Positions 18,700 to 63,246 of a stretch of 64,000 bases of DNA are shown here, piece after piece (position 1 is the first letter of the stretch; the number at the start of each line of letters is the position of its first letter). Made by a program: the position numbers and the translations under genes. The DNA lies in assembly GCF_006345805.1 (NCBI RefSeq), contig NC_042998.1, positions 110,360,001 to 110,424,000 on the forward strand. Direction: 5' to 3'. Source of the DNA: Octopus sinensis (lineage: Eukaryota). Below the pieces are notes generated by a model, which saw only the letters and a program-made list of their open reading frames with translations, was not told the origin of the DNA and searched no databases.

Positions 18700-20000
18700 A
18701 AATAAGACAACAATACCAAGGCTGTGTTGAACTTGTAGGACATTTATGAATAGAAAGGTAGTCTTACAGCTGTTTCTGGGATATTAGGGATATCTCTTCA
18801 TCAGAGACGACACGAGAGCGTTCGATATAAGGAGAAATAAAGAGAAATAAGTATAAAAAGAAATAAGAGAATAAAAATAAAAGTAGGACGCTACAGTTGT
18901 AGTTCTATTACCCAAGAAAGTGCTGTGTAGACGGGTAGAAATGCTTCTTATGGTATGTAGATGCCGATAGGAGTTCATAGTTTGTTATTACGAGTGGATA
19001 GTGTGGAGATATAAATCCCATGTGCTGTTCAATCAAAGAGGTGTTGTGGTGTGAATGAAATTTTGAGATTGTACTGGTAGGGGTAAAAAGATAAAGAGAA
19101 GAGAACAGATATGTATGTTAGGGGAGAATGGTATTAGTGAAAAGGAATAGGTGAGGAAAGAAGAAAGAAGAAGAAAAATGAAAAAGTGTGTTAGATGGTG
19201 GTCAAGACATTGTGAGGGGGTTGCCAAACGAGAGCTATCAGGATAAAAGGAATAGGGGAGGGATAGAAGGAAGAGATAAGAATGTAAGGAAGAAATATAT
19301 GTGAGAAATGAGAGGTGGTGTGATGTGTTTGAAAGGCACTAAGGTGGAGAGATAGGCAAAGAAATGGAACGGGGGTGTACTAAAGTGAGTAGTAAACCTC
19401 AAAAAAGAAGACAAGAATTATAAGAAATATTGGTCAAGTTTCTAAAAATAGACGTGGGTCTTTATTGTGCTACCTAAAGTAATAGTGGGGTCTGGTGAAT
19501 CATAGAGAGAAAGAAAGATGTATATATAGAGCTACACACGCGCGCACACATATACATTTTAAGTATATATATTCACTATTATAAGACTGCATGCTTATAG
19601 ATGTATTATTAAACAATTACAAAATTAAAATTAAAAATTGAAAAGTTATTACCTAAGGGTTGTTCGGTGTATGTACTGTGCGGTGAACAAGGTTGCATTT
19701 AGGTTTGTGGTAAAATTTGAAGGTATGAAAAAAGCTGTTTTTGCATGTACCCAGGGCCTCATTATACTTATTTAGTAGTATTGAATCGTTGTATTTTAAT
19801 ATGTGGAATGCCTCTTTTAAGCACAACTTATAGGCTGAGAGTTGACCTTGGTATGAAAGTCTTGAATCTGTTATGGACCATGACAAGTTATATGGAATAT
19901 TCCTATTTTTGAGATGATGAATGTGACTGACGAGGGTTGTGGATTTACTCTGTTTCTCATATCTAAGAGAACTGAGACGCGTAGCGTACTGCTGTTTAAA
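18700..20000 (-). mobile_element. Penelope-like element 3' part: GIY-YIG C-terminus (19720-20000), pyrimidine-rich UTR, terminal HHR
   Basis: Minus strand FKQQYATRLSSLRYEKQSKSTTLVSHIHHLKNRNIPYNLSWSI..LCLKEAFHILKY..LLNKYNEALGTC; co-oriented HHR at 18761-18808. Confidence 0.75.
18761..18808 (-). ncRNA. Minimal type-I hammerhead ribozyme
   Basis: Minus strand: GUCU CUGAUGA agagauaucccuaauauccca GAAA CAGCUG UA AGAC. Helix I GUCU/AGAC, intact core boxes, helix II gauau/auauc, palindromic helix III. Confidence 0.8.
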
Positions 20001-20330
20001 ATTTAAACATTGATATAGATAGATAGATAGATAGATAGATAGATAGATAGATAGATAAATAAGTAATCTTGTGTATGAAAATATGCATATATGTATGCGT
20101 ACGTGTATGTATACATATATAGAAAAATAGATAGGTGTACGTGTGTATATATAAATATGTCTATATGAATGTGTGTATTATGCAACAAAAGCAGTTATAG
20201 AACTAGATACTAACAGATTTAGATTCAGGAATTTAGGAAATTTCAGTTAGATTATTTATTTTTTCTTAAGCTTACCCTTAAAAAATGTTTGTTTTTTTTA
20301 AGCGTTAGCAATTATAAAGTGTTTCAAGTT

Positions 20331-20494
20331 CTATTTTCGTGAAATATTTAAGATATGTCTATCTGATGAAACCTCATTATATTTAAAACGGTATATTATT
20401 ATTCTTGAAATGTTTGTTTGTATTAATGATGCTGAAACAGGTATAACTTACAAGATGTGTCATTTGTTTGCATAATAATAATGTAGAATTGAAT
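20331..20494 (+). repeat. Dispersed ~160 bp repeat with HHR-like cores; second copy at 62281-62445 (minus)
   Basis: gatatgtctatCTGATGAaacctcattatattt...taatgatgctGAAAcaggtaTA...atgtgtcatttgttt aligns by eye with the reverse complement of 62281-62445. Confidence 0.7.
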
Positions 20495-20741
20495 TTATCA
20501 TTAAATGATTAAATTCTTTAATTGTTCAATTTCTTATTTTGGCATCCATTTCTAATATGTACATATATATTTACACACACACACACAAACACACAAAAAT
20601 ACACACACACACACACACGCACACACACACAAACATACACACACACACACATATATATATACATAATACATACATACATACATACATACATACATACATA
20701 CATACATACGTATATATATATATATATATATATATATATAT

Positions 20742-21252
20742 ATGACGTCAGAATTAGGGATTCTCGATCAGTACTTTTCGGACGATCAAGGTTCCTGTCA
20801 GTTTATACGTTTACATTTACGTGCGTTGACTACAGCATGAAAGCATATTAGCACTTATTTCTGGCAATGTAGGTGTTTCTATCACCCCAGTCACATTCAG
20901 AAACAATTATGATTTCTTTTTTCGTGAAAAATTGTAAACTGCTGGTTATATTAATTTTATAGATGCACATTATCGAATCGGTAAATTATACATTAATTTG
21001 GTTGAGGAAAACATATATACTAATACTCAATATAATCCGAAAATAGCCGGAGTTCGAACCAGTCCTAACTGACGAAGCAACGGAAATTACCGAAACTGAT
21101 GACCGTATTAGGAATTCGCGATTGGCATTTTTCGGACGATTGAGGTCCTTGTTAGTGTATATATTTACATTTATGCGCATGAGGACATCTTAGCTCTTAT
21201 TTCTAGCAATGTAGGTGTTTCTAATACCCTAGTTACATTTATTGACAATTAT
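20742..21252 (+). repeat. Direct repeat pair (20742-20910 and 21099-21252, ~354 bp period) with HHR at 21063-21113
   Basis: Shared blocks ttttcggacgat, tttacattta, cttatttct(g/a)gcaatgtaggtgtttcta. HHR: UCCUAA CUGACGA ... GAAA ... UA UUAGGA. Confidence 0.8.
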
Positions 21253-21279
21253 ATATACATATATATAGATCAAATTTAT

Positions 21280-60379: not shown

Positions 60380-62270
60380 ACTAAATAAAATAAGTTAAGG
60401 AAAAAAGGAGAACATTCCAAACAATTTTATCAAGAACTAGGTGAAAATAAACAAAACTTAATGTCATACCAACAATATGAGATGTAGAAAATTCTTCGAA
60501 AATATCATCACCCATGGGGTTTTTCACAAGTGCAGCACATAAGGTATTGAAGGCGATATCAATTCAAGAAGTAGTCCAGCTGCTACAAATAGCAAACAGT
60601 GGGAAAGCGCAAGAAACGATAAAATCACAAACTTATATAGTTATATCCTTTAACAAGCACACTAAAATGCTGCCATTAATATTTAACAGCCTATTGAAAT
60701 AGCTGGTTGAAATACATAACTATCCTGGTGAGAAGAAAACCAATAAACAGCAAAGTTAAGCACAACAGAACCATTACCTTTCTACCAACAACTTACAAAT
60801 CTTTAACCCCAGCATTCTCGCAGAAAATATATAATTATATGAAAAATATATTTCCAGGAAAAGAAAGGAGATTCTACTATTGTTCACGGTCAGTTGGCGA
60901 TTAACAAATGCATAACCGAAGACTATAGAAAAAGAAAGAATATACAGAAGGTAGAGATATAGATATAAAATATGAATGCTGTTAACTGTGTTTCCTCTAC
61001 AAGGATCTAGAAATATAGATCAAAAGCAATGATAATCAAGTACATTAAACACGTCATGAATAAATGACAAGACACTCAGCGAATACAAAGAAGAAAATAT
61101 ATTGGAAACGAATTAAAAAATGTGCAGCAAACTAATAGATATTTGTTAAGCAAACTTAACGCAGTAAATACGGTGATAGGCAGCAGAAATCTAACTTTCC
61201 AAGTGAATTTAAAGTTACAATAATCTCATCTGAATACTTAGTAAATTAGCCAGTTTAGATAAGAAAAAAAAACAAAAACTAATGACTGTACTTAGTATAT
61301 AGTATGCAAGGTCTAACATAAAAAGATAATATCTGCTGCAAATGGTGAGATATCATATAAGACTATTATAATACCATATAAATCTATTAGTATTCTATAT
61401 TAAACTGTAATAAAATATCCGATGTTGGACTAGAAAAGATAGGTATTAAAAGTAGCAGAAATTCATACAAATAACTACAAAATATGATCAAAAGAATAAA
61501 ATGTTATTTCTCACTTTAATGATGCAAAAATACATAACGTGGACTAAAGCAGCTTTAAGGAGAAATGATTAATAACAAAATATAAATAAAACAACCACTT
61601 AAAACTAAACTAAAATGTTGGGTTACAGATTGCCATGCTAAACCAAATGCAAGGCAATCACCTGTATGGTAAATACCGGATGAGATTTAATAGTATGAAA
61701 TGGATTGACATGGAAATTTCTCTGAAAAATTTTCAAAACATTCAAAAATTTTAGGCACGATGCTGCGACTAACTGAAGGAATATTTTTAATGTAATAAAT
61801 ATATGAGCTATGCAAATATCAATATGTTCGGCTTCCTTTCTAAAATGAACAAAAATCGAACTACTGAAGTTAGAATTTAGAACTTAGAAAGCTGTCCACA
61901 GTGCATAACGCACACCGTGAAATACTGGCTGACCCAACATACAATGAAAGGAAGGATGGAGATTTCTAAACACAAAAGACACTTTTATTACTGCGATATT
62001 GGAGTTGAGAAAGTATGGTGAGCGTAGTGAAGAAAGAATACTCTTGGCGGCTAAAAGTGACCAAAGAGTTACTGAAAGAGTAGGAGGATTCAAGAGCGGA
62101 AGGAAGAACAGTACAAACATTTAGCAAGGAAAGGAATAACATGGCTATTTCATGCCAGAAACCGAGACCTAAATGTAAAGGATGATTATTATGGCTGACA
62201 GAACGGAACTTCATACGAGAAAATGAAGTGTTAATTACAACCGCTCAAGATTAAGCCATAGGGATGATTC
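60380..62270 (+). mobile_element. Heavily decayed R4/Dong-type LINE RT region (possibly two fragments)
   Basis: Scattered motifs: KQFYQELGE, an NWKAPGxDKI-like block, IFP.K..QLAINKCITED, LYGKY, WL..NF.RENEVLITTAQD*AI (ETExxIxAAQDQA). Confidence 0.6.
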
Positions 62271-62280
62271 TGATAAAGAA

Positions 62281-62445
62281 AGATTCAATTATATTATTTT
62301 GCACAAACAAATGACACATTTCATAAATTACAGCTGTTTCAACACCATTAATAAAATAATTTTTTCAAGAATAATAAAATATCGTTTAAATATAATGAGA
62401 TTTCATCAGATAGACATATCTTCGTAAATATCTCACGAAAAATAG
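62281..62445 (-). repeat. Dispersed repeat with HHR-like cores and long helix II; partner of 20331-20494
   Basis: Minus strand CUGAUGA aaucucauua...uaaugguguu GAAA CAGCUG UA. Confidence 0.7.
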
Positions 62446-62544
62446 CAATTGAAAATTGTCTCCCCAGACACAACAAAATATGATTCAACACACGAACTCA
62501 CATAAAGAATCTTGCAAAACAAATCCAAAAACGAAATATCTGCT

Positions 62545-63246
62545 TATGTGAGTGTTCCATTTATTTCTAATCGTGTTTCTCCTTGAAGAAGGAAGAATAC
62601 TCGTGGATTAATCCAGAAATCGGTCCGATTCGGGAATAACGAATTTTTAAAAAATGTCTGTAAGCTTGCTTTCTTTGTTTCAGCACGCTGTGTATTTATA
62701 GTGAAAAATATTATATGTGGTTAGACATTCTAAAGTCTATTTTTCAGCATACTGGCATAGAAAATCTTTTCTTTTACCCTTATTTATAATTGTTTATATT
62801 TTCACCCTGAAAGGTATTTTAATATGCTGGCCACTGATAATTTCTTTTTCTTTTGAAAAATTTTATTCTTACATTAGAAGTAAATTTATTACGATTCACT
62901 TCGGGACTGGTAACCACTTTACGTGAGTTTTCAGACTCGTGTACTGAAGCTTGCTACAGCATTTCTGTTTGTATATATATTTGGGATACTTAAATGTGCT
63001 CATGACTTTGCATCTGCTTTTTCCGTGGGTATATGTGAGTGTTCCATTTATTTCTAATCGTGTTTCTCGCTGAAGAAGGAAGAATCTACGTGGATTAATC
63101 CAGAAATCGGTCCGATTCAGGAATAACGAATTAAAAAAAATTCTGTTAGCTTGTTTTCCCCGTTTCAGCACGCTGTGTATTTATAGTGAAAAATATTGTA
63201 TGCCGTTAGATTTTCTAAAGTCTAGTTCTTTTAGCATACTGGCATA
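62545..63246 (+). repeat. ~215-bp direct repeat pair (62545-62759, 63032-63246), each carrying an HHR motif
   Basis: Highly similar copies. Copy 2: UCG CUGAAGA aggaagaaucuacguggauuaaucca GAAA UCGG UC CGA. Copy 1 has UUGAAGA. Confidence 0.9.

What the first reader, a model, noticed from the sequence alone, without database searches (positions are those of the whole stretch)
18761..63115. Dense archive of about 12 minimal hammerhead ribozymes from several families
CUGANGA...GAAA...UH motifs with type-I topology and short, mostly palindromic helix III. Cores intact: 18761-18808(-), 21063-21113(+), 42104-42146(+), 59001-59046(-), 63067-63115(+), 20360-20447(+), 62325-62412(-). Variant or decayed: 21356-21390(-), 50140-50175(-), 37940-38006(-), 53224-53260(-), 62579-62628(+). 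Those near PLE coding remnants are co-oriented and 3' of them. Minimal, dimer-dependent HHRs are established for PLEs and non-LTR retrozymes. Roughly one per 5 kb on both strands implies that a long host transcript across this region could contain self-cleaving sites (inference).
Basis: partly seen in the sequence, partly recalled or inferred. Interest (0 to 1): 0.8.

Follow-up and report, generated by a model that had tools for sequence, protein, structure and literature searches.

The report
Penelope retroelement hammerhead remnants, variant cores
The scattered hammerhead-ribozyme motifs are real, mostly damaged leftovers of Penelope-like jumping genes, a known kind that is very common across this genome; the only unusual part is that two element families carry a changed core letter, which may or may not still allow self-cutting (untested).

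Summary
All 12 motifs are present. An intact-core descriptor finds 6 in the window against 0.06 in shuffles, and a 13th motif at 27472-27567(+) was missed. Ten of the 12 belong to seven repeat families with 145-2135 search candidates each; 42104 is single-copy and doubtful. Five sites lie 3' of co-oriented Penelope-like element (PLE) coding remnants. They are minimal type-I hammerheads of PLE terminal repeats, a published class. Density is only about three times this genome's background (1.9 per 64 kb, bootstrap P 0.03), and most window copies are damaged. No host exon was found, so the self-cleaving host transcript is unsupported. Two 'decayed' sites are family-wide variants. Family G (50140, 21356; roughly 4-6 x 10^4 copies, extrapolated) has U at core position 6 in all 35 informative copies while positions 7 and 17 vary. 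Family H (53224) is a very young element with a U3-A8 pair (published) plus C13 and a weak helix I. Cleavage was not tested. The scan noted this class before in other genomes.

The parts
18758..18811 (-). Family A minimal hammerhead: core intact, palindrome ACAGCUGU, one helix-II mismatch; among the best-kept copies
   Evidence: 1779 candidates; 25 of 29 copies pass the descriptor
19707..20003 (-). PLE endonuclease remnant (second profile, Nematis-like by recalled motif), about 900 nt 5' of hammerhead A
   Evidence: E 6.5e-20; same order in L082, 1 of 29 loci
20360..20447 (+). Family F hammerhead with long loop II; palindrome shortened, damaged
20753..20910 (+). Second, partial copy of the family B unit (3' part only; 75% to 21107-21252)
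21063..21113 (+). Family B hammerhead: core letters intact, helix II and 12-nt palindrome broken in this copy
   Evidence: 178 candidates; 15 of 19 other copies pass; this one does not
21356..21390 (-). Family G hammerhead (U6 variant), divergent subfamily; catalytic G12 changed to A, predicted dead
   Evidence: 77% to the 50140 copy
27472..27567 (+).
   Evidence: 1275 candidates; 14 of 19 pass
28135..28926 (-). PLE endonuclease remnant; points toward hammerhead I on the opposite strand; no hammerhead of its own was found
   Evidence: E 2.6e-62; the profile was seeded from this frame
37940..38006 (-). Old damaged hammerhead (U4 to C, helix II not formed, palindrome ACAGCUGU kept), about 500 nt 3' of a PLE remnant
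38512..41628 (-). Old PLE in pieces (38512-38667 endonuclease, 38972-39223, 40723-41628 reverse transcriptase), interrupted by a LINE piece
   Evidence: E 1e-6, 8e-5, 4e-26; LINE RT piece
42095..42146 (+). Single-copy hammerhead-like motif, weak as type I, alternatively type III; unresolved (old relic or chance)
50140..50175 (-). Family G hammerhead (family-wide U6); this copy also has A15.1 changed to C, predicted dead
   Evidence: (1709 candidates)
51064..51799 (-). Neptune-like PLE remnant (end of RT, linker, GIY-YIG) of family G
   Evidence: G hammerhead lies 3' on the same strand in 19 of 29 loci found by this stretch
53148..54149 (-). One 1-kb terminal repeat (pLTR) of the young family H element, between (TA)n tracts; holds the endonuclease end at 53984-54139
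   Evidence: 0.8-1.6% mismatches to 18 near-full matches
53226..53259 (-). Family H hammerhead variant: U3-A8, 4-bp helix II, G12-C13-A14-A15, palindrome ACCGGU, only 2 contiguous helix-I pairs
59001..59046 (-). Family D minimal hammerhead: core and helices intact, palindrome ACGU
   Evidence: 2135 candidates; 22 of 29 pass
59251..59435 (-). Probable PLE RT-end remnant 5' of hammerhead D (motif recognised from recall; no profile hit)
   Evidence: collinear with the hammerhead in L058, 1 of 29 loci; not hit
62325..62412 (-). Family F hammerhead: core and palindrome intact, 2-bp proximal helix I as in its family
   Evidence: 202 candidates; 10 of 19 pass
62574..62636 (+). Family E hammerhead, upstream copy: C3 to U against G8, first helix-I pair broken, predicted dead as a core
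63064..63123 (+). Family E hammerhead, downstream copy 487 nt on: core intact, extended helix III, one helix-I mismatch
   Evidence: 145 candidates; 14 of 27 pass

Best explanation
The motifs are minimal type-I hammerhead sequences in the truncated terminal repeats of at least eight interspersed repeat families, at least three of them firmly Penelope-like retroelements and the rest likely so, and they likely piled up here as dead-end insertions with no role for the host. In an active element the motif sits in the repeat 3' of the RT-endonuclease gene, and again just 5' of the next gene start in a tandem (shown for family H). It would cut the element's long RNA only when two copies pair through their palindromic helix III, or with help from the element's protein (from published work on other PLEs; not tested here). 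Reverse transcription starts near the 3' end and usually stops early, so most insertions keep just 200-1000 nt around the hammerhead, often with an inverted second copy, in AT-rich microsatellite DNA (extent and inversion shown; mechanism inferred). After insertion the copies decay. Of the 13 window motifs about five (A, D, I, F 62325, E 63067) keep core and fold, and the only same-family, same-strand pair close enough to pair is E/E2. Family G carries A6U and family H carries U3-A8 plus C13 as inherited family traits. For G the pattern of fixed and free positions suggests a still-constrained ribozyme; for H a weakened relic is as likely.
For: Descriptor 6 vs 0.06 in shuffles. Multi-copy families. 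Coding linkage for G 19 of 29 and H 12 of 20, plus a full element with RVT_1 and GIY-YIG between two direct 1-kb repeats in L242; A 1 of 29, D 1 of 29. Inverted second copy within 1.5 kb in 11 of 29 D, 10 of 19 I, 7 of 29 A loci. Relatives of the H protein in 73 metagenome loci carry such motifs 19 times on the sense strand vs 4 antisense, mostly 90-450 nt after the reading frame, two of these with U3-A8. A pattern for the U3-A8/CCGG clan without C13 has 448 genome matches vs 19 for the reversed pattern. In 27 distinct clan motifs helix I pairs 4.56 bp with its own arm vs 1.92 when arms are swapped, helix II 3.15 vs 2.07, 0 of 2000 swaps reaching either. Core columns depart from the commonest letter in 24 of 1503 cells vs 771 of 14500 elsewhere. 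Architecture matches the published min-HHR consensus (PMC4209133).
Against: No coding link was found for B (0 of 19), E (0 of 27), F (0 of 19) or I (0 of 19) within 1.5 kb using two PLE profiles, so their PLE origin is inferred. No cleavage data. The minimum-energy monomer folds of A, E, E2, F 62325, G2, H and J are not the hammerhead fold. The core-versus-flank contrast uses best-scoring hits to queries centred on the motif and is not base-matched. The swap test counts related copies more than once. The window is somewhat richer than background (P 0.03), which plain neutral accumulation explains only with local insertion bias or window selection.
Confidence: 0.85

Rival explanations
1. The copies act as self-cleavage sites in a long host transcript and shape its processing.
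For: About five copies keep core and fold. In the E pair the 5' arm and core of the downstream copy match the intact 3' arm of the upstream copy over 6 bp, so a two-copy active site in one RNA is conceivable.
Against: No host domain in 124 low-copy frames over 124 kb (short exons would be missed). Copies lie on both strands, differ in age and mostly carry breaking changes. Published PLE motifs do not cut as monomers and cut weakly as dimers (PMC4209133), and one needed its protein and left no read ends at the cut site (PMC11167929). Retrozyme relatives are depleted from introns in Xenopus (bioRxiv 10.64898/2026.07.22.740005).
Confidence: 0.05
2. Families B and E are non-LTR retrozymes: non-coding tandem monomers that cut and circularise by their hammerheads.
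For: No coding link. Tandem second copies in 7 of 27 E and 3 of 19 B loci. Longer palindromic helix III. Both occur as pairs in the window.
Against: Only 215 of the 487 nt between the E copies repeat, and only a 3' part of B, as in partial PLE tandems. No tandem array over any motif in Tandem Repeats Finder. Most copies are solo.
Confidence: 0.12
3. The U6 (family G) and C13 (family H) cores are crippled ribozymes that hitch-hike on elements which no longer need cleavage.
For: All single changes in the CUGA turn gave low activity in a mutational scan (PMC9901934, passage). Natural A6C cut at under 0.1 per minute (PMC3088659, section 8). Hammerhead mutants did not impair PLE insertion in vitro (PMC11167929). 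H has only 2 contiguous helix-I pairs where sister families have 5-6, its helix-I arm differs by indels between subfamilies, and position 13 is C, U or A among them.
Against: In G, U6 is fixed in 35 of 35 informative copies while N7 takes all four letters (17 A, 7 G, 7 C, 6 U) and position 17 takes A or U (30, 6), the two positions that are free in working hammerheads. H keeps helix II, G12, A14, A15 and the palindrome across subfamilies 88-93% alike, though that is too little divergence to decide.
Confidence: 0.4
4. The motifs are chance matches in AT-rich repetitive DNA.
For: No Rfam family reaches its cut-off in the window, and no hammerhead model is listed at A or D even at E 10. A one-mismatch descriptor finds 4.6 per shuffled window. 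42104 and a weak extra hit at 48336-48422 have no family among the loci held.
Against: Shuffle, family, covariation and strand-bias results above.
Confidence: 0.02

Closest known systems
Minimal hammerheads (min-HHR) in the pLTRs of metazoan PLEs (Cervera and de la Pena 2014, PMC4209133)
   Same: Type-I topology, CUGANGA and GAAA boxes, extra nucleotide after A9 (A, D, E, G), G10.1-C11.1, palindromic minimal helix III, many families per genome, mostly solo or inverted copies, U3-A8 variant
   Different: A6U (family G) and C13 (family H) appear in none of the listed motifs I could read there. Families F and I have 55-62 nt helix-II regions. The extrapolated load here (about 7 x 10^4 intact cores) exceeds the 2,000-9,000 reported there for other animals, with a different descriptor.
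Neptune-clade EN+ PLEs (as described in Craig et al. 2021, PMC8557442)
   Same: Family H: RT then CX4CxxC linker then C-terminal GIY-YIG, direct pLTRs, inverted truncated neighbours, insertion in (TA)n
   Different: Clade assigned from the linker motif only; no tree with named reference elements was built.
PAc Poseidon element of Anolis (Frangieh et al. 2024, PMC11167929)
   Same: pLTR hammerhead close to the start codon of the next unit
   Different: PAc has a canonical C3-G8 core and was shown to be protein-assisted and dispensable for insertion in vitro; nothing was assayed here.
Natural core variants of hammerheads (Perreault et al. 2011, PMC3088659)
   Same: U3-A8 covariation; a change at position 6 (A6C) with low but detectable activity
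   Different: A6U and A13C are not in the section read; those variants were rare, while family G runs to tens of thousands of copies.
Non-LTR retrozymes (Cervera and de la Pena 2020, PMC7229834)
   Same: Type-I hammerheads in short non-coding repeats; partial tandems in B and E
   Different: No full tandem monomer arrays in the window; loop-loop contacts and circular RNA not shown.

Membership tests
PLE minimal hammerhead | Core CUGANGA / GAAA / UH (or U3-A8) | tested here: met
   Families A, B, D, E, F, I. G differs at position 6 and H at position 13 in all or nearly all copies, so these two are variants.
PLE minimal hammerhead | Type-I topology with helices I and II that covary between families | tested here: met
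   Own-arm vs swapped-arm test in 27 clan motifs; 61 helix/palindrome signatures among 150 motifs in loci held.
PLE minimal hammerhead | Short palindromic helix III | tested here: met
   ACGU (D, G), ACCGGU (H), ACAGCUGU (A, F), ACAAUUGU (I), 12 nt (B), 11 nt with odd centre (E); not met at 42104.
PLE minimal hammerhead | Lies in the pLTR, 3' of an RT + GIY-YIG frame | tested here: met
   G 19 of 29, H 12 of 20 plus full element, A 1 of 29, D 1 of 29 (weak), 37940 by position.
PLE minimal hammerhead | Same, for families B, E, F, I | tested here: inconclusive
   0 of 19, 27, 19, 19 loci show coding within 1.5 kb with two profiles; copies are short and inverted pairs occur.
PLE minimal hammerhead | Self-cleavage as dimer or with protein | not testable with these tools
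   Cofolding pairs the palindromes for A, F, H and 37940 but does not give a full double hammerhead as minimum-energy fold; no assay.
Non-LTR retrozyme | Head-to-tail monomers of about 170-450 nt, each with a hammerhead | tested here: not met
   partial tandems only, in a minority of B and E loci.
Non-LTR retrozyme | Abundant small circular RNA | not testable with these tools
   Only assembled contigs were offered.
Rfam hammerhead families | Score at the gathering threshold | tested here: not met
   0 hits in the window; best 16.7 bits at 42095-42138; none at A or D.
Neptune-clade PLE (families G, H) | CX2-5CxxC linker between RT and C-terminal GIY-YIG | tested here: met
   H frame in L242; the G remnant matches the profile built from H relatives.
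Neptune-clade PLE (families G, H) | Groups with named Neptune elements in an RT tree | not tested
   No named reference sequences were held.

The most novel reading that the evidence does not exclude
The most abundant hammerhead family seen in this genome works with U at core position 6, a substitution thought to cripple hammerheads, and the youngest, probably still active element works with C at position 13. PLE hammerheads may then be tuned down on purpose, as slow or protein-gated switches, and thousands of such variant ribozymes are invisible to standard descriptors.
Probability: 0.3. Interest if true: 0.6.

Novelty: new variant of a known kind. Interest (0 to 1): 0.33.

Why it matters
As an archive the finding is ordinary: PLE hammerheads by the thousand are known in many animals. 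Its value is as a natural experiment on an open question, what the hammerhead does for PLEs. Family G (A6U, with an A6 sister family in the same genome) and family H (C13, with A13 sister families) give matched natural pairs for a cleavage assay. Activity would widen the hammerhead core consensus. Inactivity would show that very successful PLE lineages spread without a working ribozyme.

Tried and rejected
Rfam: the top 150 of 303 rows at E<=10 were all below cut-off, almost all miRNA models on microsatellites (153 rows not shown); 0 at gathering. Repeat finder output was swamped by microsatellites. A first descriptor without the extra nucleotide after A9 missed most sites (3 hits). The idea that hammerhead D and the LINE tail next to it form one element was rejected: none of the 29 other tail loci continues into D; one holds two D copies nearby. 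A search for longer relatives of the 28423-28929 frame gave 0 of 165 candidates; the HMMER search then found them. Single-protein locus scans found nothing useful. Sequencing runs: no RNA holder listed. Contigs of four runs laid on the H element show presence only, no GT..AG joint and no pile-up of ends, so expression, splicing and cleavage remain open. No reads were laid over 42104, so its conservation in related organisms is open. Pfam on 124 of the 131 low-copy frames (the other 7 were scanned) found one RT and one sub-threshold DUF. A family-based density count (11 vs 2.9 per 64 kb) was set aside because the families were chosen from the window. Lunse et al. 2017 on dimeric PLE hammerhead variants was not held; I know it only as cited in PMC6765202, and it may already list A6U or C13.

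
Full report
Setting. The window is 34% G+C and packed with microsatellites. It lies at G000:C2:110,360,001-110,424,000 in a 2.72-Gb animal genome. A cephalopod mollusc is my guess from genome size, repeat load and bivalve-associated names among the protein relatives; this was not tested.

Observation. All 12 motifs are present as quoted. Rfam gives nothing at cut-off. I wrote a type-I descriptor (intact core, optional extra nucleotide after A9, helix I score at least 3, helix II at least 2.5, first helix-III pair formed). 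It finds 6 sites against 0.06 in 150 local dinucleotide shuffles: 18758, 27472 (new), 42104, 48336 (weak, new), 59001 and 63064; 62327 joins when 2-bp helix I is allowed. With one core mismatch allowed the count is 11 against 4.6 in 40 shuffles, so single 'variant' calls cannot stand on motif shape alone and needed family evidence.

Families. Genome searches centred on each motif gave candidate counts of 1779 (A, 18761), 178 (B, 21063), 2135 (D, 59001), 145 (E, 63067 and 62579), 202 (F, 62325 and 20360), 1709 (G, 50140), 421 (H, 53224) and 1275 (I, 27472); only 40 were scored per search and these are not copy numbers. 21356 matches G at 77%. 42104 returned only itself. 37940 was not searched genome-wide. 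Among fetched copies, 25 of 29 A, 15 of 19 B, 22 of 29 D, 14 of 27 E, 10 of 19 F and 14 of 19 I pass the intact-core descriptor; 0 of 19 G and 0 of 20 H pass. Copies share only a few hundred bases around the motif, with a sharper 3' than 5' edge. An inverted second copy lies within 1.5 kb in 11 of 29 D, 10 of 19 I, 7 of 29 A, 3 of 20 H, 2 of 27 E, 2 of 19 B, 2 of 19 F and 1 of 19 G loci. That is the insertion pattern described for PLEs (PMC8557442, passages).

Link to PLE genes. L242 holds a full H element: two direct 1-kb repeats around frames of 355 and 635 aa, the second with RVT_1 (E 2e-7), a CX4CxxC linker and GIY-YIG (E 3e-6). The window holds one such repeat (53148-54149), 0.8-1.6% different from 18 others. 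Of 29 loci found with the endonuclease stretch at 50935-51330, 19 carry the G motif 0.56-1.2 kb downstream on the same strand. A second profile, built from 150 relatives of the 28423-28929 frame, finds remnants at 19707-20003, 28135-28926, 38512-41628 and elsewhere, all on the minus strand. A and 37940 lie 3' of two of them, and L082 repeats the A arrangement. D follows a probable RT-end remnant, collinear in 1 of 29 loci. B, E, F and I show no coding link with either profile. I lies opposite to the 28135 remnant.

Are they ribozyme-type structures? Three results say so. In 73 metagenome loci encoding relatives of the H protein a variant-tolerant scan gave 19 sense and 4 antisense hits, mostly 90-450 nt behind the frame, with different helices each time. 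A pattern for U3-A8 cores with a CCGG palindrome and any letter but C at 13 matched 448 times in G000 against 19 for the reversed pattern (100 listed, 30 fetched). In 27 distinct motifs (26 from those 30 loci plus one H copy) both helices pair better with their own arm than with swapped arms. Core columns also vary less than other columns among copies, 1.6% vs 5.3%, with the ascertainment caveat given above. Against: minimum-energy folds of the bare motifs give the hammerhead shape for C, D, G, F2 and roughly I and B only.

Density. Fifty-one 10-kb stretches at round coordinates on 19 chromosome-scale contigs gave 15 hits in 509.9 kb (0.7 expected from 20 shuffles), or 1.88 per 64 kb. This extrapolates to about 7 x 10^4 intact cores genome-wide. 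Six in 64 kb has bootstrap P 0.03, five 0.07; the variant-tolerant count (5 vs 2.6) has P 0.15. The flanking 60 kb have none. The window is a moderately rich sample of a genome-wide load.

State of the window copies. Kept: A, D, I, F 62325, E 63067, each with at most one helix mismatch. Broken: B (helix II, palindrome), F 20360 (palindrome), E 62579 (U3 against G8), G 50140 (A15.1 to C), G 21356 (G12 to A), 37940 (U4 to C). In a dimer the core of one copy uses the cut site and helix-I arm of the other (established for double hammerheads; PMC4209133), so only same-family, same-strand partners should work. In the window these are E/E2 (487 nt apart), B with a half copy, and two dead G copies 29 kb apart. 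No host domain was found in or around the window.

Variant cores. Family G copies gathered by their 3' flank alone (25 rows from gene-linked loci, 12 from control stretches; 2 of the 37 lack the motif) all have U at position 6, while position 7 shows all four letters and position 17 shows A or U. These are the two free positions of the hammerhead consensus, which suggests that G source elements stayed under ribozyme-like constraint with U6. A sister family with A6 exists (3 loci). Seven intact-fold or 11 total G motifs in 509.9 kb extrapolate to 4-6 x 10^4 copies. Family H belongs to the U3-A8 clan but has C13 in the young subfamily and in an older one, U13 in two copies of another, A13 in one copy, and a helix-I arm that varies by indels. 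Relaxed constraint and a tolerated variant fit equally well.

Literature seen. PMC4209133: parts 1-2 of 4, supplement file 2 part 2 of 3 and passages, file 1 not searchable; it describes the class, U3-A8, no monomer cleavage and low dimer cleavage. PMC11167929: passages. PMC3088659: passages and section 8; its supplementary figures on active and inactive core variants were not seen and may bear on novelty. PMC6765202: passages and half of section 11. PMC8557442, PMC7229834, PMC9901934, PMC6962438, PMC13282606: passages. bioRxiv 10.64898/2026.07.22.740005: part 1 of 5 and passages. Lunse et al. 2017: not seen. Searches for 'hammerhead' with 'A13C' gave 0 papers; with A6U, CUGUNGA and related words 18 papers, 15 listed, none on natural variants by title. 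This is weak evidence of novelty because subscription journals are mostly absent. The scan's own notes list the same class, including U3-A8, in other genomes and nothing in this genome.

Verdict. Real and well above chance, but a known class at near-ordinary density for this genome; host self-cleavage is unsupported. The testable novelty is the A6U family and, less firmly, the C13 family. Interest 0.33.

Noticed in passing
window 58075-58496 and 58633-58873 (-); 44980-45402 (+); 16573-16923 (+): 3' tails of a LINE with a restriction-like endonuclease (type recognised from recalled motifs), next to (TAA)n arrays; 5465 candidates for the 58640-59110 query. One abuts and probably truncates the D repeat at about 58975.
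   Followed up: partly
window 62283-64000: Stretch holding F and both E copies is duplicated at G000:C2:194.93 Mb at 97.7% identity.
   Followed up: partly
window 27472-27567, 62325-62412; L135, L140, L252, L260: A recurrent class of hammerheads with 53-77 nt helix-II regions and 6-nt palindromes, about a third of the control hits; parent elements unknown.
   Followed up: partly
L417, L418, L365, L369: A sister family of H with canonical GAAA whose helix I is in register only if one extra U sits before U3; L418 has a Neptune-like endonuclease 250 nt upstream.
   Followed up: partly
window 53250-53285 (-): Branch-point-like CTAAT and a pyrimidine tract precede the H core, and the next AG lies inside it; a splice there would remove the first core box. 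No such joint in the contigs.
   Followed up: partly
window 53296-53389 and 53408-53502: Internal 79% direct repeat of about 95 nt within the H terminal repeat, upstream of the hammerhead.
   Followed up: no
L242 4893-5618: The H reading frame is in two pieces (355 and 635 aa); contigs of three runs differ from the assembly by single letters at two places near the end of the first piece, so the breaks may be assembly errors.
   Followed up: partly
window 339-794 (-), 22408-22494 (-), 54484-54651 (+): Further PLE endonuclease remnants with no recognisable hammerhead of their own.
   Followed up: no
window 48336-48422 (-): Weak extra descriptor hit, no copy among loci held; probably chance.
   Followed up: partly
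window 36751-37104 (+); 7261-7686 (+); 39843-40523 (-); 48657-49325 (-): Tc1-like transposase piece and LINE pieces, named from recalled motifs; only 40239-40523 had a Pfam RT hit.
   Followed up: no
window 18136-18320 and 55541-55725: 185-nt inverted pair at 77%, copies of a common SINE-like repeat.
   Followed up: no
L176 359-1087 (-): A 243-aa small-GTPase-like frame about 500 nt from a family F copy on the opposite strand; a host gene next to a hammerhead insertion elsewhere in the genome.
   Followed up: no
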